Shown: positions 7,145-16,706 of the stretch, piece by piece
How the letters are laid out: each line of letters starts with the position of its first letter
Position numbering within the stretch: position 1 is the first letter of the stretch
Assembly (NCBI GenBank): GCA_038087875.1
Contig: CM075991.1
Coordinates: 3,782,001-3,846,000, forward strand
Source: Malacoraja senta
Lineage: Eukaryota
Reading direction: 5' to 3'
Length of the DNA stretch: 64,000 nt
The notes under the pieces: model-generated
What the model was told of the DNA's origin: nothing
Seen by the model: only the letters and a program-made list of their open reading frames with translations
Database searches by the model: none
Translations under genes and position numbers: made by a program

Positions 7145-7391
7145 AGAAAGGAGAGACGCGCCGCAATCAGGGTTGGATGTTAGGGTTGGACCTAGATATT
7201 AGTTTCCACCTGCACGCTCGGGGCCAATTGTTTATCATTGGTTCCCTGATCTGTTCCCTAGGTACTTCATGCCAGATGATTACCCGGAGGATTGTATGCT
7301 AACTTTTGATATGCACACTTGTATGTTTCACGTCAAACAAAAGGACCACCCTTCTGTCGACTGTCAAATGCAAGTAGTTGTTGGGAAATGA
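4553..7391 (+). CDS. MSMB: Beta-microseminoprotein-like gene B, complete, 110 aa; exons 4553-4555, 4737-4818, 6668-6785, 7262-7391
   Basis: Spliced product MKLLLCIALLLAAPLSES-SCTFQPQDTSARGVCVDINDGTFHEFEEAWMSTNCWECVGSREGYICCDRYFMPDDYPEDCMLTFDMHTCMFHVKQKDHPSVDCQMQVVVGK*; all GT-AG, phases consistent; AATAAA at 7479-7484. Confidence 0.88.
5388..5844 (+). mobile_element. Rex1/Babar-type LINE 3' end with (TTGAA)n tail, inserted in a Penelope pLTR inside gene B intron 2
   Basis: ERMRRSFFPQAMRLLN motif typical of the Rex1 ORF end, AATAAA plus TTGAA repeats, TGACG repeated at 5383-5387 and 5845-5849. Confidence 0.7.
7098..7141 (+). repeat. (GA)n microsatellite in intron 3 of gene B
   Basis: Direct reading. 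Confidence 0.95.
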
Positions 7392-7478
7392 GCTGGAAAC
7401 AGGCAGCCCCCTTCCAACGTGGAGACACACACCAATGAGCCTTGACTCTTGCATGTAATGTAATGACTCTTGCATCAC

Positions 7479-7484
7479 AATAAA
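7479..7484 (+). terminator. Polyadenylation signal of gene B
   Basis: AATAAA 88 nt after the stop; conserved at 15471-15476 (X) and 19253-19258 (D, minus). Confidence 0.75.
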
Positions 7485-8122
7485 CAAATGCCAAACCTAT
7501 TCTGCCATGGTCTTCTGGCCCATCATTCAATAGGGAAGCGGCGGGAGATGGAGGAGGCTCTGGGAACTTGAGTGTTTGAGGACATTTAAAGTGAATTAAA
7601 TGTAGGTTGTAAGAGAACATAACTATGAAATGTGTAAATTAACCTGAAAAGTAATAAATACGAAGGTTTTGATACGTTTAGCTTGAACATGGGGAACGAG
7701 ACCCAGCGGTTCTCCTAATCCTGTGATTGGTTCCATCTAACCCATCATTTCAATAAGAAATGGGCTGGAGAAATAGAAGGTTCTGGGAAATGTTGTGGCG
7801 TGTTTGGGAACTCGAGTGTGTGAGGAAATGTAAGTTGGAGTACGTGCAAGTAAAAATTCAAAGACTTCCAGGGAAGTGTATAAAATCATCAGGTATAGAC
7901 CTGGTGGACACCAAGAGTCTCTTGCCCAGATCAGGGAAATGGAGGAACAAAGGGCACAGTTTTACGTGAAGAGGGAAAAATATGATAGGAATCTGGGGCA
8001 TAACCTTTTGACATAAATGGATGTAGGTGCATGGGACGAGCTGCCGGAGGAGGTAGTTGAAGCACAGACTATCACAACGTTTAAGAAACAATTAGACAGG
8101 TACATGGCATGATATGTTTAGA

Positions 8123-8322
8123 NNNNNNNNNNNNNNNNNNNNNNNNNNNNNNNNNNNNNNNNNNNNNNNNNNNNNNNNNNNNNNNNNNNNNNNNNNNNNN
8201 NNNNNNNNNNNNNNNNNNNNNNNNNNNNNNNNNNNNNNNNNNNNNNNNNNNNNNNNNNNNNNNNNNNNNNNNNNNNNNNNNNNNNNNNNNNNNNNNNNNN
8301 NNNNNNNNNNNNNNNNNNNNNN
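8123..8322. other. Assembly gap (200 N)
   Basis: Run of N. Confidence 1.
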
Positions 8323-8804: not shown

Positions 8805-11071
8805 ATGGCTGGGGCGAGGCCGAAGAACCGGAGCTACGCAGTGGCGCCATCAGAGGCGGATGCGAGGACATTGGAGTATGAGCCTTATGTGAACTTGGAT
8901 TGGGGCAAGTTTGGTATCTCGGTCCAAACTGGGCCCCAGATGTCAAGGGGAGCAATTACCAAAGCCGTGAATGACCTTATTGGGGGGCGGGCTGTTGTCT
9001 CTTCCGAGCTTGAAAGAGGAAAGGTGGAGATGATTTTAAAGACCCAGGAGGGTGTGAAAATGGCGGTGGAGAGGCGGATATCAGTGGGGGGGATCCAATT
9101 ACAGGTGGATCCGTGGTTATCTAGGGTGAGACCGGTTCTCCTGCGGAGTTGCCCCACATTTATTTCGGATGCTGCACTTATGCCACACCTGTCTATGATT
9201 GGGGAGGTGAGGTCTAAGTGCTTTAGGCTCAGGCACCTCGGGGGGGATCCGGAGGAAAGGGGATCTTGAGTTTTAAGAGGAGGGTGTTCATGAAGGTGGG
9301 TGAGGATGAAGGCGGGGAGGAGAGCTTTGAGGTGGATTGTCAGGGTCTCCGTAGAACCGTGTATTGGAGTTGGGGGAAGGCACGGTGTCATGAGTGTGGA
9401 GCATATGGACATATCCGTAAAGAGTGTCTTTCTCGTGGGGGCGTTGCTAGAAGTTCTAGCGTAGTGGCCCAGGATTGCAATGCTGGCCCATCCGGGGTGG
9501 TACATCATGCCTCGGTGGCGCTGGGCGGCACTGCTGACCTGGCTAGGGCGGCTAGCTCTACCTCGGGGATCCGGGGCGGAAGTGATAGGCCATCTGGGTC
9601 TGAAAGTTCTGCCTTGGGGACCCGGGGCGGGGAAGGCCTAAGGCCCCTGCGTCATGAGACTGTGGAGGTGGTGGTGGCTAATGGTGAGGGGGAGGGAGAG
9701 GGTGGAGAGGGGGAGGAAAAAGATGGGGGGGGGGAGTGGGAGGTGAAGAAGTCGAGGAGGAAGAGGGGAAAGGGCCATCCAGCGAGTAAAACGCAATCTG
9801 AGAACGGGGTGCGTGTTAGATCTAGTGAGGTCCAGAGTGTGCTTGATGTGGCCCAGCAAGGCGATGAGGTCGCTCAGACGGGGGAAGGGATGGTAAAGTG
9901 TGCGGGTGGTATAGTGGATGGGGGTAGTGAGGGGGTGGAAGACCCTTCCTTTATGGAGGTCACCGTACCGCCGCATGCTAGTGGGGTAAAAAGGAATAGG
10001 CCTGGCGAGGAAGAGGAAGGGCGTGAGGCAAAAATTAGGGCAGGTGAGGGGATTGATTCCGCTGGAGTTGAGTCCTCTGGGCGGGTGGCTGTCCCTTCAT
10101 TTCAGGGGCCCTCTGATGGAGTTATCTCATCGGGTGGTGAGGTGAGCTCCCCTGGGGGTGTGTCCTCTGGGTCGGAGGAGGTCCCCTCGTTTCAGAGGCC
10201 TCTTGAGGGTGATGGAACGCCAGAGGATGAGGTATGTGCCCCTGGTAGGGGGGCCCCTGAGATGGGGGATGAGCAGAGTCAGCTGGAGGGGGGTGGTTCG
10301 GGGGCTGTGGTGTTCCAGTCTATGCTGCACATCAGTGCCAGTGGTGGTAATGGGGGGTGTGCTGCATCGCCGGATGAGGTGGAAGGGGAGAGGCTAAAAG
10401 AAAGAGGAGAGCCTCTGGGTGTTGCTAGTGGTGGCGATGCTATAGGTGTTGTGGAGGTCGGGGATAGTTCGGGTGGTGATTTCCCTTTAGGTTCAAGGGG
10501 TGGCAGTGTATCCCAGGCCCTGGGGGTGCCTAGTGTTTTTGTTTCCCCAGGCCAGGGAGTGGAGGGTGATGGTAGCGAGCAGGTGCCAAGCCAGTCAGTG
10601 GGATGCTTGTTGCAGTTGGGGGTTTTGGGGCCCTTACCTGGCATTGATCCTGGGGGTGGTGTCTTGCTGGAGGAGGGGGAGGGTGAACAGGAAAGTTTGG
10701 GTAGTGGGGGTGGAGAGCTTTTGGAGAGCTCTGGGCGTTCAATTACTGAAAGAGACCTTGAACGTTGTGATGTGGAGCCTGATGGTGCAGGTGCAAGTGC
10801 GTTGGCCGAGTGCCCAGGGTCCAAGGCCGAGTCTCTTGAATGTGAGATAAAGGTGGTTCGAGACTTTCTCAGAACAAACCGCTCCGTAAGAACAAGATTG
10901 GAGGCTGCTAGTAGGTGGTGGAAGGATCTGCCAGGTTTGATTCCGACTCTCGAGGATATTCTTGGCAGCAGGGAGAGTGATCTTACTGACTTAGAGGAGA
11001 GGCAGTTTGGGGACTTTTTGGTGTTACTCAGAGAGAAATTTGTTGTGTCTACGGGGAGTGATGGGGTTTAA
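8805..11071 (+). pseudogene. Tx1 ORF1 (gag-like), one frameshift near 9240-9266
   Basis: ORFs 8805-9269 and 9266-11071 in different frames; CHECGAYGHIRKEC zinc knuckle; long low-complexity G/E/S-rich middle. Confidence 0.8.
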
Positions 11072-11073
11072 TA

Positions 11074-14000
11074 TAGTGGGCCTTTACATTCACCGTTGCA
11101 ACATTAAACTTAAATGGGAGTAGAGCGAGTTTTCGTAGATTTCAGCTTTTATCAGTCCTTAAAGAGGGGAGATTTGCAGTGTGTTTTTTGCAGGAGACGC
11201 ACACAGTTGTTAGTGATGAACCTACCTGGAGACTGGAGTGGGAAGGGGGGGTTTACATGAGCCATCTCAGCTCGAATTCGAGTGGGGTGGCCTTTCTGTT
11301 GGCCCAGAATTTCCTGCCAACGATTTTAAAAGTGAATGAAGTTGTGCCTGGACGTTTGCTCCATCTGCCAGTGAGCTTGGATGGCATACCGTTGCATTTC
11401 ATTAACGTGTATGCCTCTAGCTCCGGTACGATGCAGGCTGGCCTAATTCAGGAGGTGACTGATCTGTTGAGCACTATTGATAGGGGAGAGTGTGTTTTCC
11501 TTGGTGGGGACTTTAATTGCACACTTGAGGCGCGAGATCGTTCTGGTACTCAGTGTGCCCCTGCTGTTGCAAAGAAGTTGAGAGGGATGATTGAATCCTT
11601 TGAGTTGGTTGATACATGGCGGAACCTCCATCCGGATTCCAATGCTTTTTCGCGGAGGTATGAGGGTGGTTCCCGTATTGACAGAATATATATTTCCCGA
11701 GCGTTTGTTGCCCGTGTCGCAGAGGCTTCAATGCGGGTGGTGCCATGTTCGGATCACTGTTTGGTGCGTGTGGACTTCAATCCGGCGCGCGCTAGGGCTG
11801 GGTCCGCGTACTGGCACTTTAACAACGGTTGCTGGAGGATCGGTGTTTCCGGGAGTCATTTAGTAGGTTTTGGGGAAGTGGAGAGAGGGGCGGAGGTGCT
11901 TCTCTTCCCTTAGGCAGTGGTGGGATGTGGGGAAGGCTCACATTCGTCTATTTTGTAAGGAGTATACGTGGGGGTCGACCGGACAGAGGGACTCAGCGGT
12001 CGCGAGGCTTGAGAGGGAGCTACGGGGTGCAGAGTCTCGCCTGGGTCGGGATGGTGAGGACTCCTGTGGATGGGGAGAGTTTCAGGAGAAGAAGGAAGCC
12101 TTGAGGAATCTGCTGCTTGAGCGGTCCCGAGGCGCTTTCGTGAGGGCGCGGGTACAGATGATGCAAGATCTGGACCGAGCTTCGCCTTTCTTTTTCTCTT
12201 TGGAGAAAGGGAGGGGAGCCTGCAAGCAGCTCGTAGAGCTGCTCGCAGATGATGGATCCTCAGTCACTGATCGGAGAGGATCAGTGAGGAGGTCGGGTCC
12301 TTTTATGGGTCCCTGTTCTCCGCAGGGGGATATAACGGGGAGGCTCAGCAGGACTTGTGGGAGGGTCTACCGACTGTTGATAGGGAGGTGGCCGATCTTC
12401 TTGATGGCCCCTTATCTTTGGAGGAGTTGACTTGTGCATTGTTTCAGCTCAGGAAGGGTAAGTCACCCGGGATGGATGGGTTGACGGTAGAGTTTGTCAG
12501 AGCTTTCTGGGATATCCTGGGGGGTGATTACATGTTGGTGCTGGGGGAGAGTCTGGCGGCCGGGGCGATGCCCCTCTCGTGGCGTAGGGCAGTTGTTGTC
12601 TTGCTGCCTAAGAAGGGTGAACTCCGCTTGTTGAAGAACTGGAGGCCGGTATCTCTCCTATGTACAGAGTATAAAGTATTTGCACGGGCAATGGCAAATC
12701 GCCTGGGCCCTGTGCTGTCTCAAATGATTCATCCTGACCAGTCCTATACAGTCCCTGGCAGGTCCATTCAGGATAACATCCACCTGGTTAGGGACCTGAT
12801 TCATATAGTTCAGGGTACTGGTCAGTCAGCTGCTTTTCTGTCTCTTGATCAGGAGAAGGCTTTTGATAGGGTAGAGCATGATTACCTATTCGGGACGTTG
12901 CAAGCGTTTGGATTTGGACCGCATTTTGTGGCCCGGGTCCGGCTTCTGTACGCTGCAGCGGAGTGCCTGGTGAAGGTTAATGGTGCGTTGTTGGCTCCCT
13001 TTCAGTTTGGGAGGGGGGTCCGTCAGGGGTGCCCCATGTCGGGTCAGTTGTACTCGGTCTGTGTGGAGCCGTTCCTGTGTCTTCTTCAGAGGAGGTTGAC
13101 AGGCCTGGCCTTACCTGGGCCGGGGTTGGAGGTGGTTCTTTCAGCGTATGCAGATGATGTCCTCCTTATGTTCACTGATCCTGGTGACCTGCGGAGGATG
13201 CGTGACTGCCAGGAGATTTTCTCAGCTGCATCTTCAGCCAGGATTAACTGGAGTAAGTGTTCTGGTCTTTTAGTGGGTCAGTGGCAGGTGGATTCCCTGC
13301 CGGAGGAGATGGAAAGGTATGTGTGGAGCACCACACATCTCCTCTATCTGGGGGTTTACCTGAGTCCCACTGAGGATGCTTGGCCGGCGAACTGGCAGGA
13401 GTTGGAGACGAAGGTGGTTGCCCGGCTGGGGCGCTGGTCGGGCTTGCTTGGAGTTCTTTCTTTCCGGGGGAGGGTGATGGTCATAAATCAGCTGGTGGCC
13501 TCTATGTTATGGTACCGGCTGGCTACTCATGTCCCACCTTCCATATTTGTAAATGCTCTTCAGAAGAAGCTGGTAGATTTCTTCTGGGGAAATAGGAAGC
13601 ACTGGGTCTCTGCAGCGGTCCTGAGTCTCCCGTTAGAGGAGGGCGGTCAGTCCTTGGTATGCGTGCGTACCCAGGTGGCGGCTCTCCGTCTCAGGACTCT
13701 GCGGAGGTAAATGTATGTAGAGAATCCGCCCAGATGGCACGCTCTGGCCACGTATTTTTTTCGTCGTGGTCGTTGCCTAGGGGGGGTCTCGCGGCTCCCG
13801 GTGGCGGGCATAAGTAGACCCGCCCTAAGGGGTGTGCCTGTTTTGTACCGAGATGTGATCAGAGTGAGGAATTTGGTTGTTTTCAGCCAGCGTGTTGTTC
13901 TACGAGGGGAGGGGGATGATGCGGCTGCGGGTGTGGCCGGTCCTCGCCCAGTCATGGCGGGTGTCGAGGAGAGGCGAGCGTCTAGAGTGGTTCTGGCTGA

Positions 14001-14780
14001 GCTTTCAATTGCTCCGTCAGATCTGCTCATCGGGCCAAGGCTCCGGGATATATCTCGGGAACCGGCTCCACACAACCTGAGCCGCCTTTCTGAGATGATC
14101 AGCATACCGTTTCGTGATGCGAAGAGACGCACATTGTATAGGATGTTCCTGCACATTCTGCACCTCCTTGCCTTTGTTTCCCGTCCTGACACACCTTGGC
14201 GGACGGTGTTACCACCTGATGGTGGGGGGGGGGGTCCCTGGTGGGGGTCCTTCTTACGGGAGTTGTCCCCCTTTACATTGGGGACCTGGGGTGGAGACTG
14301 TTGCATGGAGCGGTGGTTTGTAATAAACTTTTGAGTCGGTTCACGGGTTTGTCCGCCGCGTGTATTTTCTGTGGCAAGGAAGAAACCGTGTTCCACGTAT
14401 ACATGGAGTGTGAGAGGTTACTGCCCCTGTACCAATATCTGAAGGGGTTGTTCCTTAAGTTCTGGTTGCATTTTAGTCCCACGATTCTAGTGTGTGGGCA
14501 TAAGGTAGGGTGTGGGGAGAGCCAAGTGGGGGGCTGGGACCTCCCTGTCGGTTTGCTCCTGGGCCTGGTTAAGATGGCCATTCGTGGGTCCAGGCAGCGG
14601 GCGGTCGATGGTGAGGCGAGAGTTGGCTGCCTGCCCCTCTTCCGGGCGTACGTCCGTGCACGGGTGTCCCTGGAGCAGGAATATGCGGTGTCCACGGGGA
14701 CTCTGGAGGCCTTCCGTGGGCGATGGTCACCACGTGGGGTGGAGAGTATAATAAATAATGAATATACTGTTGTACTATAA
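11074..14780 (+). pseudogene. Tx1 ORF2 (APE endonuclease, reverse transcriptase, C-terminal zinc finger), disrupted
   Basis: TLNLNG, FLQETH, GGDFN, SRIDRIY, SDH (APE); KSPGMDG, NWRPVSLL, LDQEKAFDRV, GVRQGCP, AYADD (RT); CIFC...HVYMEC. Frameshifts near 11830, 12270-12350, 14235 and TAA at 13708-13710. Confidence 0.9.
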
Positions 14781-14958: not shown

Positions 14959-15245
14959 GACCATGAATTAATTCTCTTTTATCCTCCCCTAATATTAGGG
15001 TTGGACCTAATATTACTCTCCACCTGCACGCTCAGGGCAAGTTGCAGCGTCAGTTAACCTCCTGACACGCAATTATATGGGGTATGGGAGGAAATTAGAG
15101 CATCCATAAAAATAACCACGCAGTCACAGGGAGAACATGGAAACTCCACAGTCTGGACCTGAGGTCAGGATCCAACCCGCTTTCCTAGCGCAGCGAGGCA
15201 GATCTTTCCAATTGTTTATCATTGGTTCCTTGATCTGTTCCCTAG

Positions 15246-15375
15246 GTATTCCATGCCATCTGGTTACTCGAGCGATTGTATGTTAACTTTCGATATTACG
15301 ACTTGTTCGTTTCATGCCAAAAGGAAGGACGACCCGTCTGCCGAGTGTCAAGTGGATATACTTGTTGGGAAATGA
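15246..15375 (+). CDS. MSMB: Orphan last exon (exon 4) of MSMB-like gene X; exons 1-3 presumably in the gap
   Basis: tag|g YSMPSGYSSDCMLTFDITTCSFHAKRKDDPSAECQVDILVGK*; paralogous to 7262-7391; AATAAA at 15471-15476. Confidence 0.82.
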
Positions 15376-15636
15376 GCTGGAATAAACTGACAACTCCCTT
15401 CCAATGTGGAGTCATACATCAACGAGCCTTGACTCTTGCATGGAATGTAATGTAATGACTCTTGCATCACAATAAACAAATACCAAACATGTTCTGCCGT
15501 CGTCTTCTGACCCATCATTCAATACGAAAGGGGCGTGAGGTGGAGGAGGCTCTGGGAACTTGAGTGATTGAGAACATTTAAATTGAACGAAATGTAGGTT
15601 GTAAGAGATACATCTATGAAATATGTAAATTAACCT

Positions 15637-15773
15637 TCTTCTTCTTGCGTATGGCGTGCACAGCCTAAAGTTGTAAGACAACTTGTTCTGTTTGATCTTC
15701 TGTTTGTGCACGCCAGGTTGATTGCATTTGTTGAAACAGGGTGGACCACGTGAAGGTTGCAATCTCCCACCCC
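15637..15773 (-). mobile_element. 137-bp non-autonomous retroelement with HDV-like ribozyme head and (AAG)n tail
   Basis: 11-bp TSD TAAATTAACCT (15626-15636, 15774-15784); empty paralogous site at 7635-7645; 3' GCAAGAAGAAGAA tail; internal 11-bp inverted repeat TGGCGTGCACA/TGTGCACGCCA. Confidence 0.88.
15720..15773 (-). ncRNA. Minimal (P4-less) HDV/CPEB3-like self-cleaving ribozyme motif
   Basis: GGGGUGG GA GAUUGCA ACC UUCACGU GGU CCACCCU GU UUCAA CAAA UGCAAUC: P1 7 bp with G1-U wobble, P2 7 bp, P3 3 bp, L3 UUCACGU, candidate catalytic C in J4/2. Activity untested. Confidence 0.8.
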
Positions 15774-16706
15774 TAAATTAACCTGAAAAGTAATAAATAC
15801 GAAGGCTTTGATACGTTTAGCTTGAAAATGGGGAACGAGGCCCAGCGGTTCTCCTAAACCTGTGATTGGTTCCATCCAACCCATCATTTCAATAAGAAAT
15901 GGGCTGGAGAAATAGAAGGTTCTGGGAAATGTTGTGACGCGTTTGGGAACTCGAGTGTGGGAGGAAATGTAAGTTGGAGTACGTGCAAGTAAAAATTCAA
16001 AGACTTCTAGGGAAGTGTATAAAATCATCAGACGTATAGACCTGGTGGATGCTAAGAGTCTCTTGCCCAGAGCAGGGAAATGGAGAAACAAAGGGCACAG
16101 TTTTAAGGTGAAGAGGGAAAGATATGATAGGAATCTGGGGCATAACCTTTTGACACAAATGGAGGTGGGTGCGTGGAATGAACTGCCGGAGGGGGTAGTT
16201 GAAGCACAGACTATAGCAACGTTTAAGAAGCAATTAGATGGACAATATAGGTTTAGATGGATATGGGCCAAACGCAGGTAAGTAGGACTAGTGTAGATGG
16301 GACATGTTGGTCAGGGGGGCAGTTTAGGCGTAGAGCCTGTTTTCTTGTTGGAGAGCAGTGAGACAAGTGCTCACAGTAGCATTCAAAGGCATTTGCACGG
16401 GTTCATGGAATAAAACATTTTAGACTGACATGGGTTAAACACTTGCGAGTGGGACTAAAGGAGATGGGGCATTTTGAGGCATGGTCAGATTCGGTGCTCT
16501 ATGACTATACGCTGGTTGAAAGACCGGTGAAGTGAAAGGCGGCACCAGCGGAACTCCACCTCTTTTCTGAATAAATAAAACGCAGGCAGCATCAGCCAAG
16601 GTTCAAAAGCAGGTTCTCGAGAGCGGAGAATGAAGTCTGCAGGCGGTGCCAGCGGGGCAGAGATTGTCCGCTCAGACACTGAAGAGAAGTGTCTGGTTCG
16701 GAGATC

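What the first reader, a model, noticed from the sequence alone, without database searches (positions are those of the whole stretch)
15637..15773. 137-bp mobile element headed by a minimal HDV/CPEB3-like ribozyme
Seen: the insertion has an 11-bp TSD and an empty paralogous site at 7635-7645, so its ends are exact. On the minus strand its first 54 nt form a nested double pseudoknot: P1 GGGGUGG/CCACCCU with a G1-U wobble, P2 GAUUGCA/UGCAAUC, P3 ACC/GGU, L3 UUCACGU, then GU, a 5-nt linker replacing P4, and J4/2 CAAA. The rest is an 11-bp stem (UGGCGUGCACA/UGUGCACGCCA) and an (AAG)n tail; no pol III A/B boxes. Known: UUCACGU followed by P1'-GU is, from memory, the CPEB3 ribozyme core; HDV-like ribozymes cleave 5' of G1 and process the 5' ends of R2, RTE and L1Tc transcripts. 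Inference: the element's 5' end is the cleavage-site G, so this looks like a promoterless SINE-like family that cuts itself out of host read-through RNA and borrows a LINE (RTE-type tail) for insertion. A P4-less version in a vertebrate repeat would be notable; I cannot confirm it is undescribed.
Basis: partly seen in the sequence, partly recalled or inferred. Interest (0 to 1): 0.92.

Follow-up and report, generated by a model that had tools for sequence, protein, structure and literature searches.

The report
Ribozyme-headed short retroposon, LINE partner found
This 137-base insertion is one of several thousand copies of a short retroposon whose first 54 bases fold like a stripped-down hepatitis-delta-type self-cutting RNA, inherited from the 5' end of a 3-kb LINE that also supplies its tail; self-cutting itself has not been shown.

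Summary
Window 15637-15773 (minus strand) is an exact insertion with a 10-11 bp target duplication and an empty paralogous site at 7635-7645.

It belongs to a family of several thousand copies, some 100% identical. About four in five copies start at G1.

The first 54 nt satisfy an HDV-like descriptor. That descriptor matches nowhere else in the window and in 0 of 79 shuffled windows.

I found the autonomous partner. It is a ~3.1 kb, APE+RT, RTE-like LINE with the same head about 106 nt before its ATG and the same 3' tail. The short element is therefore an internal-deletion derivative, not a pol III SINE.

Distant relatives of this LINE in metagenome contigs carry HDV-like ribozymes at the same place, with covarying P1, P2, P3 and a P4 hairpin. 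A covariance model built from them alone hits the window only at G1 (E 9e-5). Two of them hit Rfam's CPEB3 model below threshold.

P4 loss is thus derived in this lineage.

Cleavage is not shown. In one poly(A) RNA-seq run of a relative, reads mostly run across G1 and no 5' ends pile up there.

Verdict: a new variant of a known kind, of moderate to high interest.

The parts
15637..15773 (-). Whole 137-nt non-autonomous retroposon copy (young subfamily 'A')
   Evidence: exact insertion; 40 of 40 scored genome copies are 98-100% identical, out of 2485 first-look candidates.
15720..15773 (-). 54-nt P4-less HDV-like ribozyme fold (nt 1-54); predicted cleavage 5' of G1 = 15773
   Evidence: Descriptor hit unique in the window. 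CM R1, built from non-fish relatives, hits 15773..15692 at 28.6 bits, E 9.2e-5.
15767..15773 (-). P1 5' strand GGGGUGG (nt 1-7)
   Evidence: Pairs with 15738-15744. The pair at nt 5/32 is U-A here and U.G in the G32 subfamily.
15758..15764 (-). P2 5' strand GAUUGCA (nt 10-16)
   Evidence: Complement of 15720-15726. Relatives have other letters here but remain complementary.
15745..15757 (-). P3 ACC / L3 UUCACGU / P3' GGU (nt 17-29)
   Evidence: L3 is identical to the L3 of Rfam's CPEB3 consensus as printed.
15738..15744 (-). P1 3' strand CCACCCU (nt 30-36)
15731..15737 (-). G37 U38 (P1.1 partner of C22, with a U.U) and the 5-nt linker UUCAA where relatives have a P4 hairpin
   Evidence: relatives carry 19-40 nt with a hairpin here. 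Family consensus is UUCGA.
15727..15730 (-). J4/2 CAAA; C44 (15730) is the predicted catalytic cytosine
   Evidence: The first letter is C in every subfamily and in 10 of 12 relatives. The second letter varies freely: CGAA, CUAA, CAAA, CCAA.
15720..15726 (-). P2 3' strand UGCAAUC (nt 48-54)
15652..15715 (-). 3' domain: 11-bp stem (nt 59-69 with 112-122) enclosing a 7-bp hairpin (nt 90-106)
   Evidence: -23.6 kcal/mol, z -3.45.
15637..15675 (-). About 35-nt 3' end plus (AAG)n tail, shared with the LINE partner (ACAACUUUAGGCUGUGCACGCCAUACGC(AAG)n)
   Evidence: 99 genome sites have this tail behind LINE sequence. RVT_1 domain upstream.
15774..15784 (-). Target-site duplication, 5' copy (aggttaattta)
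15626..15636 (-). Target-site duplication, 3' copy (first AG shared with the tail)
7635..7645 (-). Empty paralogous target site

Best explanation
The insertion is a copy of a non-autonomous, internally deleted derivative of a ~3.1 kb RTE-like LINE (APE + RT in one reading frame).

LINE and derivative share two things: the first ~54-90 nt, and the last ~35 nt with the (AAG)n tail.

The shared head is a P4-less HDV-like self-cleaving ribozyme with a CPEB3-like core. Its features are P1 7 bp with G1.U36, P2 7 bp, P3 3 bp, L3 UUCACGU, P1.1 G-C plus U.U, a 5-nt linker in place of P4, and J4/2 C-N-A-A.

Proposed mechanism; these steps are inferred, not shown. The element has no promoter of its own and is transcribed as part of longer host RNAs. 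The ribozyme cuts 5' of G1 and so sets the RNA's 5' end. The LINE's reverse transcriptase recognises the 3' stem-loop and (AAG)n tail and copies the RNA into a nicked target, which gives a 10-11 bp duplication.

Shown here:
- the exact insertion;
- the family and its 5' ends at G1;
- the LINE partner;
- the fold;
- its homology to P4-bearing ribozymes at the same position in related LINEs.

Not shown: catalysis, read-through transcription, and which LINE copy drives the youngest subfamily.
For: 1. Family and 5' ends.
- There are 2485 first-look candidates; all 40 scored are 98-100% identical and 32 of 40 cover nt 1-137.
- An exact 18-mer of L3-P1' occurs 564 times (A32 form) and 912 times (G32 form), in searches that each see only the half of copies with a purine at a fixed flank position.
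- By eye, about 75-85 of each 100 listed rows reach G1, about 5-7 stop 1-2 nt short, and the rest are truncated further.
- 19 of 20 older-subfamily copies are full length at the 5' end.

2. Partner LINE.
- 99 sites have the tail behind non-SINE sequence with variable 5' truncation.
- An RVT_1 domain lies upstream, E 5e-15.
- L086 shows head, about 45 nt, then the ATG of an ORF with Exo_endo_phos_2, E 4e-8.
- All 15 LINE 5' ends examined carry the head.
- Homologues are ~1000-aa APE+RT proteins on 3.2-3.4 kb contigs.
- Some SINE subfamilies equal the LINE 5' UTR joined to its last ~28-43 nt.

3. Fold.
- The descriptor is unique in the window and matches 0 of 79 shuffles.
- Between subfamilies the head changes at nt 32 (U-A to U.G, pair kept), nt 42 and nt 45 (a position free in the family). 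The adjoining body differs at many sites.

4. Comparative evidence.
- In 35 upstream regions of distant relatives, a scan for P1+P3+L3 only finds 12 sites on the sense strand and 0 on the antisense strand, 74-147 nt before the ORF.
- 12 of 12 then have a P2 partner. Shuffled 5-mers find one in 2.5-9.5% of trials, and in 74% for one site.
- Relative to these, the window differs by double compensatory changes in P1, P2 and P3.
- CM R1, built from 6 relatives only, hits the window once, starting at G1, at 28.6 bits and E 9.2e-5.
- R1 gives 28 hits in the 80 loci, all on the sense strand.
- On those, 89% of cells are paired against 80.7% in shuffles (0 of 500). 14 pairs have changes on both sides against 6.0 in shuffles (0 of 500). 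Slid controls pair 45-57%.

5. CPEB3 likeness. Rfam RF00622 hits two relatives at the ribozyme (27.6 and 24.8 bits, gathering 35). Its printed consensus shows UUCACGU, CCCCUGU and CGAA. U20, C22, G25 and the G-C + U.U P1.1 match the CPEB3 description in PMC4836649 (passages read).

6. P4-less drzs are known and described as a class (PMC10879173, passages read).
Against: 1. RNA data. I laid raw poly(A) RNA-seq reads of a relative (X24; 614 reads at 90% likeness or more).
- 94% run on into unlike flank.
- 188 reads continue beyond G1, against 163 listed beyond the tail.
- The tool reports no place where molecules begin or end.
- At most a minority of sense reads there can start at G1.
Limits of this test: copies of all ages and both orientations are mixed; the library would miss a short RNA without poly(A); the organism is a relative, not the source of the window.

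2. No Rfam HDV or CPEB3 hit for the window copy, even at E up to 10.

3. Nested-fold energy of the head is ordinary: z +0.22, with 108 of 200 shuffles as good. P2 is not scored by that tool.

4. LINE copies keep G1 less often. 2 of 15 are exact, 3 are near-full, and 10 lack 4-17 nt.

5. All 25 distinct relatives keep a P4, so loss of P4 could mean loss of activity.

6. No intact (~1000 aa) copy of the partner LINE was seen among the hits scored; the longest open frame at 70% identity or more is 524 aa. The youngest SINE copies, meanwhile, are identical to each other.

7. The window copy itself carries CpG-decay changes at nt 42 and 45.
Confidence: 0.74

Rival explanations
1. Fossil fold. The head descends from a true HDV-like ribozyme, but losing P4 killed or crippled catalysis. 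The conserved head now serves another purpose: an internal pol II promoter or initiator that starts at G1, a protein-binding or 5'-protecting structure, or a template-end signal for the reverse transcriptase.
For: RNA-seq shows mostly uncleaved read-through and no ends at G1. All 25 distinct relatives keep P4. The L1Tc Pr77 region is both a promoter and a ribozyme (PMC3383444, abstract only), so a promoter role at a LINE 5' end has precedent.
Against: The letters needed only for catalysis are kept in every amplifying subfamily and in the LINE: C44, the AA after it, U20, C22, G25 and the G1.U36 wobble. The position after C44 drifts freely, which is the pattern expected for an active J4/2. Natural P4-less drzs exist as a class (PMC10879173, passages read); that some were shown active is my recollection of Riccitelli 2014, which is not held. 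The predicted cleavage site coincides to the base with the copies' 5' ends.
Confidence: 0.17
2. Ordinary pol III SINE. The 5' end is a pol III transcription start and the fold is incidental.
For: The element is short, abundant, has a sharp 5' end and a LINE-type tail.
Against: There is no tRNA, no B-box-like match inside the element, and no Rfam 7SL, 5S or tRNA hit. The same head starts a 3.1-kb protein-coding LINE whose 5' UTR holds two T4 runs; pol III would stop there, by established knowledge. Homology to ribozymes of related LINEs is shown.
Confidence: 0.03
3. Chance complementarity in a repeat head. No real structure.
For: The nested MFE z-score is ordinary. There is no Rfam hit.
Against: 0 of 79 shuffled windows match. 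The independent CM hit starts at G1. Covariation with relatives in all three helices.
Confidence: 0.01

Closest known systems
HDV-like ribozymes at the 5' ends of non-LTR retrotransposons (R2, RTE, Baggins; Ruminski et al. 2011, not held; as summarised in PMC6765202 and PMC7761336, passages read)
   Same: The ribozyme is the first thing in the element, and cleavage 5' of G1 would free the element RNA from a co-transcript. The host element is promoterless and of RTE type. The ORF starts about 100 nt downstream.
   Different: P4 is missing here. The host is a vertebrate, probably a cartilaginous fish. The same head also drives a very abundant short derivative.
SIDEs of R2 (PMC3414825, listing and abstract only) and NARTc/SIDER of trypanosomatids (PMC3185411, PMC4035085, abstracts only)
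   Same: Non-autonomous elements made by internal deletion. They keep the LINE's 5' ribozyme and its 3' RT-binding end.
   Different: A different LINE clade and host. Copy number is in the thousands, with dispersed rather than rDNA-specific insertion. Later subfamilies remodelled the middle into an 11-bp stem.
Mammalian CPEB3 ribozyme (Rfam RF00622; PMC4836649, passages read)
   Same: The layout is the same position for position up to nt 38. L3 UUCACGU, CCCUGU after P1, and J4/2 CGAA in the family consensus all match. P1.1 is one G-C plus U.U. Relatives of this ribozyme are the only things in the searched loci that hit RF00622.
   Different: CPEB3 is a single-copy intronic element with a P4 hairpin. 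The window copy does not hit RF00622. The relatives' hits are below the gathering score. Common descent is not shown.
Minimal (P4-less) HDV-like ribozymes: drz-Mtgn and phage theta ribozymes (PMC10879173, passages read; Riccitelli 2014 not held)
   Same: A double pseudoknot without the P4 domain, about 50-60 nt long.
   Different: That paper reports that nearly 99% of such sequences were confined to bacteriophages, where they sit beside tRNAs. Here the ribozyme is in a vertebrate retrotransposon and is visibly derived from a P4-bearing ancestor.
Ribozyme-headed retroposons of other ribozyme classes: Schistosoma hammerhead SINEs and twister variants in RTE-type elements (PMC8501958 abstract; PMC7761336 passage)
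   Same: The logic is the same: a self-cleaving motif at the 5' end of a promoterless retroposon.
   Different: A different catalytic fold.

Membership tests
HDV-like (delta-like) self-cleaving ribozymes | Nested double pseudoknot: P1, P2, P3 and P1.1 in the order P1-P2-P3-L3-P3'-P1'-P1.1-(P4)-J4/2-P2' | tested here: met
   Descriptor parse. Unique in the window; 0 of 79 shuffles match.
HDV-like (delta-like) self-cleaving ribozymes | G at +1 forming a G.U wobble at the base of P1, with cleavage 5' of it | tested here: met
   G1.U36. The element's TSD-defined 5' end is this G, and about four in five copies start there. The cleavage itself was not tested.
HDV-like (delta-like) self-cleaving ribozymes | Catalytic cytosine as first nucleotide of J4/2, followed by purines | tested here: met
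   C44-A/G/U-A-A in all subfamilies and in the LINE. C is at this place in 10 of 12 relatives found without asking for it.
HDV-like (delta-like) self-cleaving ribozymes | L3 with U20, C22 (P1.1 with the G after P1') and G25 | tested here: met
   UUCACGU followed, after P1', by GU. Same numbering as CPEB3 in PMC4836649.
HDV-like (delta-like) self-cleaving ribozymes | P4 helix | tested here: not met
   A 5-nt linker stands in its place. P4 is not required of the minimal subclass (PMC10879173).
HDV-like (delta-like) self-cleaving ribozymes | Covariation supporting the helices | tested here: met
   Within the fish family there is only one one-sided change (nt 32). Against relatives there are double changes in P1, P2 and P3. 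Among 25 distinct relatives, 14 pairs show double changes against 6.0 in shuffles, 0 of 500.
HDV-like (delta-like) self-cleaving ribozymes | Match to a curated Rfam model (HDV, CPEB3, drz families) | tested here: not met
   No hit at gathering score or at E up to 10. P4-bearing relatives reach 24.8-27.6 bits on RF00622, gathering 35.
HDV-like (delta-like) self-cleaving ribozymes | Mg2+-dependent self-scission, abolished by the C-to-U change in J4/2 | not testable with these tools
   Needs a bench assay. RNA-seq gave no sign of cleaved ends.
SINE in the strict sense (pol III, tRNA/7SL/5S-derived head) | Internal pol III promoter or small-RNA-derived head | tested here: not met
   The head is the LINE's own 5' end.
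SIDE-type non-autonomous LINE derivative | Shares both the 5' end and the 3' end with an autonomous LINE in the same genome | tested here: met
   Head: 15 of 15 LINE 5' ends. Tail: 99 LINE-type tails. Intermediates equal to the LINE 5' UTR plus its last ~28-43 nt.
RTE clade of LINEs (the partner) | About 3.2 kb, a single ORF of ~1000 aa with N-terminal APE and RT, short UTRs, short-repeat tail | tested here: inconclusive
   Size of ~3.1 kb inferred from L086 plus L081. APE and RT domains found. Homologues of 990-1040 aa sit on 3.2-3.4 kb contigs. No phylogeny with named RTE references was possible.

The most novel reading that the evidence does not exclude
RTE-type LINEs carry an old lineage of HDV-like ribozymes with a CPEB3-type core (L3 UUCACGU, CCCUGU, CGAA). 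The mammalian CPEB3 ribozyme would then be a domesticated copy of such a LINE head. This cartilaginous-fish lineage shows that the same core still works in nature after shedding P4, and that it drove thousands of recent insertions of a promoterless 137-nt retroposon.
Probability: 0.2. Interest if true: 0.8.

Novelty: new variant of a known kind. Interest (0 to 1): 0.62.

Why it matters
Ribozyme-headed LINEs and their deletion derivatives are known mainly from insects, trypanosomes and flatworms. [quoted passage not shown]

Here both come together in a vertebrate. A P4-bearing ancestor can be seen in related LINEs. The stripped-down form is kept in several organisms' data and in every amplifying subfamily. 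The short derivative has copies that are still identical to each other.

If the head cleaves, three things follow:
- it is a natural experiment on the minimal HDV fold;
- it is a compact 5'-end-defining module for LINE-based RNA templates;
- it is a concrete lead on where the CPEB3 ribozyme came from.

If it does not cleave, the strict conservation of catalytic letters needs another explanation.

Tried and rejected
- Rfam on the window (gathering score) and on 15550-15850 (E up to 10): no ribozyme hit. Only chance sRNA/snoRNA matches appeared.
This found older SINE subfamilies, not the LINE, because my exclusion letters by chance also excluded the LINE.
- Walking up the LINE from the tail. L081, L082, L083 and L084 were all 5'-truncated. 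L085 is a truncated LINE joined to an inverted SINE piece, not a true 5' end.
- Printing whole elements through a long pattern: the output is cut at 80 letters, so heads were not seen. It was useful only for counts and subfamilies.
- A second RTE-like family with an 886-aa open frame (L181): it has a different tail and no 5' UTR in the copy fetched. It is not the partner.
- The look-up of sequencing runs, kind rna: no RNA holder listed for the 801-nt stretch. Small-share rows are guesses.
- MAFFT alignments that include the P4-less head misplace J4/2 and P2', so I counted pairs by script instead.
- The search of earlier findings: nothing on this genome.
- Papers not held: PMC3308841, PMC3159031, PMC3256349; Riccitelli 2014.
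- Literature searches found no paper in the held library describing an HDV-like ribozyme in a fish or shark LINE or SINE, or a P4-less one in a vertebrate.
- Dfam and Repbase cannot be searched here.
Full report
**1. The observation**

Read on the minus strand, window 15773..15637 is a 137-nt block. It lies between two copies of aggttaattta (15784-15774 and 15636-15626); the first AG of the 3' copy can equally be counted as the end of the (AAG)n tail. The paralogous site 7645-7635 has the same 11 letters once, uninterrupted.

The repeat finder puts the flanking paralogous blocks in register. 7453-7616 matches 15445-15608 at 90%, and 7635-7892 matches 15774-16031 at 97%. Their spacing changes from 7992 to 8139, which is +147 = 137 + 10. 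The insertion and its ends are therefore exact.

- P1: nt 1-7 with nt 30-36, G1.U36 wobble.
- P2: nt 10-16 with nt 48-54.
- P3: nt 17-19 with nt 27-29.
- L3: UUCACGU.
- Then GU, a 5-nt linker, and J4/2 CAAA.

The 3' domain is an 11-bp stem (nt 59-69 with nt 112-122) around a 7-bp hairpin. Its MFE is z -3.45, with 1 of 200 shuffles as good.

**2. Is the fold more than chance?**

I wrote a descriptor for the HDV-like topology:
- G1, a 7-bp P1 ending in G.U;
- J1/2 of 0-8 nt;
- P2 of 5-8 bp;
- a 3-bp P3;
- a 7-8-nt L3 with U, C and G at positions 1, 3 and 6;
- a G after P1';
- J4/2 of the form C-N-R-A directly before P2'.

The descriptor's rules come from my knowledge of the family and from passages in PMC4836649 and PMC10879173.

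In the 64-kb window, both strands, it matches one place, with G1 at 15773. With A, G or U in place of the catalytic C it matches nothing. In 79 dinucleotide-preserving shuffles of the window it never matched with C, and matched once with U. With the L3 letters relaxed, the expectation is 0.22 sites per shuffled window.

Nested-fold energy alone is unremarkable. The MFE reproduces P1+P3, but z is +0.22; that tool cannot score the P2 pseudoknot.

Rfam gives no HDV or CPEB3 hit for the window copy, at gathering score or at E up to 10.

**3. The family**

The window lies in a 1.94-Gb genome. A search with the 137-mer gave 2485 first-look candidates. All 40 that were scored are 98-100% identical; 3 are 100% identical, and 32 of 40 cover nt 1-137.

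Of the 30 loci returned, my script printed the 20 that hold an exact 16-mer anchor; the other 10 were not looked at. Of those 20, 17 begin GGGGTGGG and 3 differ in the first two letters. Flanking duplications are visible. J4/2 is CGAA in 12 and CAAA in 8.

Older subfamilies exist, with 141 hits to a pattern that excludes the young body. In 20 of them fetched, 12 begin GGGGTGGG, 7 are full length with 1-3 changed letters, and 1 is truncated.

Two searches were anchored only on L3-P3'-P1' and so are blind to the 5' end:
- the A32 form occurs 564 times;
- a G32 form occurs 912 times.

Each search saw only copies with a purine at one fixed flank position. By eye, about 75-85 of each 100 listed rows run to G1, about 5-7 stop 1-2 nt short, and the rest are truncated further.

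In the G32 form the P1 5' strand is unchanged. The nt 5/32 pair is therefore U.G there and U-A in the window copy and the LINE, so the pair is kept.

An exact 25-nt tail anchor occurs 1202 times in the purine half.

**4. The autonomous partner**

I asked for the tail behind non-SINE letters. This found 99 sites of a second family that shares about 35-43 nt of 3' end plus (AAG)n and is 5'-truncated at many different points. It encodes RVT_1, E 5e-15.

After several truncated copies, locus L086 gave the 5' end:
- the head, lacking its first 8 nt in that copy;
- then AACCCGAGGTGCACAAACAAATAGATGTAGTGTTTTGGTGTCACTTTTGATC;
- then the ATG of an ORF with an Exo_endo_phos_2 domain, E 4e-8.

G1 to ATG is about 106 nt, and the whole element is about 3.1 kb.

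A search with this 5' region found further copies. I fetched 14; with L086 that makes 15 LINE 5' ends, and all 15 carry the head. Of these, 2 are exact to G1, 3 are near-full with changed letters, and 10 lack 4-17 nt.

Homologues of the APE region are 990-1040-aa APE+RT proteins on 3.2-3.4-kb contigs. That is the RTE architecture as I know it. No phylogeny was possible.

Some SINE subfamilies are simply the LINE's first ~90 nt joined to its last ~28-43 nt (rows; L052; compare). The short element is thus an internal-deletion derivative of the LINE. Later subfamilies, including the window's, remodelled the middle into the 11-bp stem.

It is not a pol III SINE:
- no tRNA;
- no B-box-like match inside it;
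- the same head starts a coding LINE whose 5' UTR contains two T4 runs.

**5. Comparative test of the ribozyme**

I aligned the LINE's APE region with homologues and fetched 80 loci of distant relatives from metagenome contigs, 35-61% identical over the matched segment.

In the 35 loci that hold sequence upstream of the ORF, I scanned for P1+P3+L3+G only, with no P2 requirement:
- 12 sites on the sense strand and 0 on the antisense strand;
- all 74-147 nt before the ORF;
- all 12 have a 5-bp P2 partner preceded by A; shuffled 5-mers find one in 2.5-9.5% of trials, and in 74% for one site;
- 10 of 12 have C as the first letter of J4/2.

Parsed side by side, these ribozymes share the window's layout: J1/2 of about 2 nt, P2 of 5-7 bp, a 3-bp P3, L3 UUCACGN or UCCCCGU, G after P1', and C-N-A-A. 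They also have a 19-40-nt insert with a hairpin (P4) where the fish family has 5 nt.

Against them the window shows double compensatory changes:
- P1 pair 5: U-A versus A-U;
- P3 pair 3: C-G versus G-C;
- P2 pairs 3-5: G-C/U-A/U-A versus U-A/A-U/C-G and others.

I built a covariance model from six of these relatives only, with P1, P3 and P4 as pairs and no fish sequence. Over the whole window it gives one significant hit, 15773..15692 on the minus strand, at 28.6 bits and E 9.2e-5, starting at G1. The next hit has E 1.9. The model's 3' part is misplaced there, as expected without P4.

In the 80 loci the model gives 28 hits, all on the sense strand. On their alignment, with P2 added as a pseudoknot that the model does not contain:
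- 89.0% of cells pair, against 80.7% in shuffles (0 of 500 shuffles reach it);
- 14 of 20 pairs show changes on both sides, against 6.0 ± 1.4 in shuffles (0 of 500);
- slid controls pair 45-57%.

The innermost P2 pair reads AU:12, UA:11, GC:1.

**6. CPEB3 likeness**

Two relatives, L153 and L103, hit Rfam RF00622 (CPEB3 ribozyme) exactly at the ribozyme, at 27.6 and 24.8 bits. This is below the gathering score of 35. Among nine loci, these were the only ribozyme-family hits.

The consensus printed there shows L3 UUCACGU, ...CCCCUGU, and CGAA before P2'. These are the same motifs as in the fish family.

PMC4836649 (passages read) describes CPEB3 as having a U20.G25 wobble, C22 in P1.1, a P1.1 made of one G-C and one U-U pair, and a 4-nt J4/2 starting with the catalytic C. 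The window has the same letters at the same numbers. Whether this reflects descent or shared constraint is open.

**7. RNA evidence**

No run is on record as an RNA holder of the 801-nt stretch. One raw poly(A) RNA-seq run of a related organism (X24) and three contig sets from other coded organisms were laid on 15607-15803 at 90% likeness or more.

The contig sets hold the element without any inserted letters at the P4 site. Their majority letters are G32, G42 and G45. Loose ends also show the LINE tail junction in two of them.

In X24:
- 614 reads were laid, and 94% run on into unlike sequence;
- 188 reads continue beyond G1, against 163 listed beyond the tail;
- the tool lists no place where many molecules begin or end.

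Depth in the last head bin is 107 and 133 for the two read directions. Whichever direction is sense, more than half of the sense reads there cross G1.

This speaks against efficient cleavage of the bulk of copies in that tissue. It is a weak test, for three reasons: copies of all ages and both orientations are mixed, a short RNA without poly(A) would be lost, and the organism is a relative.

**8. Mechanism, with what is shown and what is inferred**

Shown:
- the exact insertion with a TSD;
- thousands of copies with 5' ends at G1;
- the head and tail shared with an APE+RT LINE;
- the HDV-like fold and its homology to P4-bearing ribozymes at the same place in related LINEs;
- conservation of the catalytic letters through all amplifying subfamilies, while the position after C44 drifts (CGAA, CUAA, CAAA).

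Inferred:
- transcription as part of host RNAs;
- self-cleavage 5' of G1 that sets the template's 5' end;
- recognition of the 3' stem-loop and (AAG)n by the LINE's RT;
- target-primed reverse transcription.

Open question: which LINE copy drives the youngest subfamily. No intact ORF of this LINE was seen among the hits scored; the longest open frame is 524 aa at 70% identity or more.

**9. What is known, and novelty**

HDV-like ribozymes at the 5' ends of R2, RTE, Baggins and L1Tc are established, as is their use by non-autonomous derivatives. Sources: PMC6765202 and PMC7761336 (passages read); PMC3414825, PMC3185411 and PMC4035085 (abstracts only); Ruminski 2011 not held.

P4-less 'minimal' drzs are known. 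[quoted passage not shown]

Five literature searches found nothing in the held library on such a ribozyme in a fish or shark LINE or SINE. Dfam and Repbase could not be searched.

The host is a vertebrate, probably a cartilaginous fish. The window's other LINE has its best named homologue (72%) in a stingray, then turtles and bony fishes.

I file this as a new variant of a known kind: a P4-less, CPEB3-core HDV-like ribozyme heading an RTE-like LINE and its abundant, recently active deletion derivative in a vertebrate.

Noticed in passing
window 9227-14334 (+), with direct repeats 7224-8096 and 15208-16238: An L1/Tx1-like LINE lies between two ~0.9-kb direct repeats that are 82-97% alike: an ORF of 614 aa with no Pfam hit, then Exo_endo_phos, then RVT_1. 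The 'empty site' and the filled site sit in these two repeats. Whether the repeats are a tandem duplication that includes the LINE was not resolved.
   Followed up: partly
L085 2660-2760: A 5'-truncated copy of the partner LINE is joined to an inverted fragment of the SINE, with a short palindromic junction at AGATTGCAACCTTCACGT. It looks like a template switch or rearrangement, not a true LINE 5' end.
   Followed up: partly
own genome, rows (e.g. C1:77956598, C1:278505662): In some copies G1 (or G2) is directly preceded by the (AAG)n tail of another copy, giving head-to-tail tandem pairs.
   Followed up: no
L181 (own genome C6:42558900-42562700, minus strand): A second RTE-like family, 48-50% identical in the RT N-terminal region, has an 886-aa open frame, a different 3' end, and TTGA-type repeats at both ends. 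Several such families with long open frames exist in the genome.
   Followed up: partly
L101-L180 (metagenome contigs): 28 of 80 loci of RTE-like relatives carry a P4-bearing HDV-like ribozyme on the sense strand before the ORF. The rest either lack upstream sequence or have something else there (twister variants are reported for RTE elements, PMC7761336).
   Followed up: partly
L103 139-240: A long, near-perfect hairpin upstream of the RTE-like element hits many unrelated miRNA precursor models below their gathering scores. It is most likely just an inverted repeat.
   Followed up: no
own genome: SINE versus LINE ages: The youngest SINE copies are 99-100% identical to each other, while copies of the partner LINE are 81-97% identical to the query copies and broken. 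The current driver of the SINE was not identified.
   Followed up: partly
protein P0054: A protein annotated in a deep-sea eel genome is 83% identical to the LINE's APE region over 30% of the query. This is far closer than the other named hits, which are insects and arachnids at 35-44%. It may mean the LINE lineage is shared among fishes or has been transferred.
   Followed up: no
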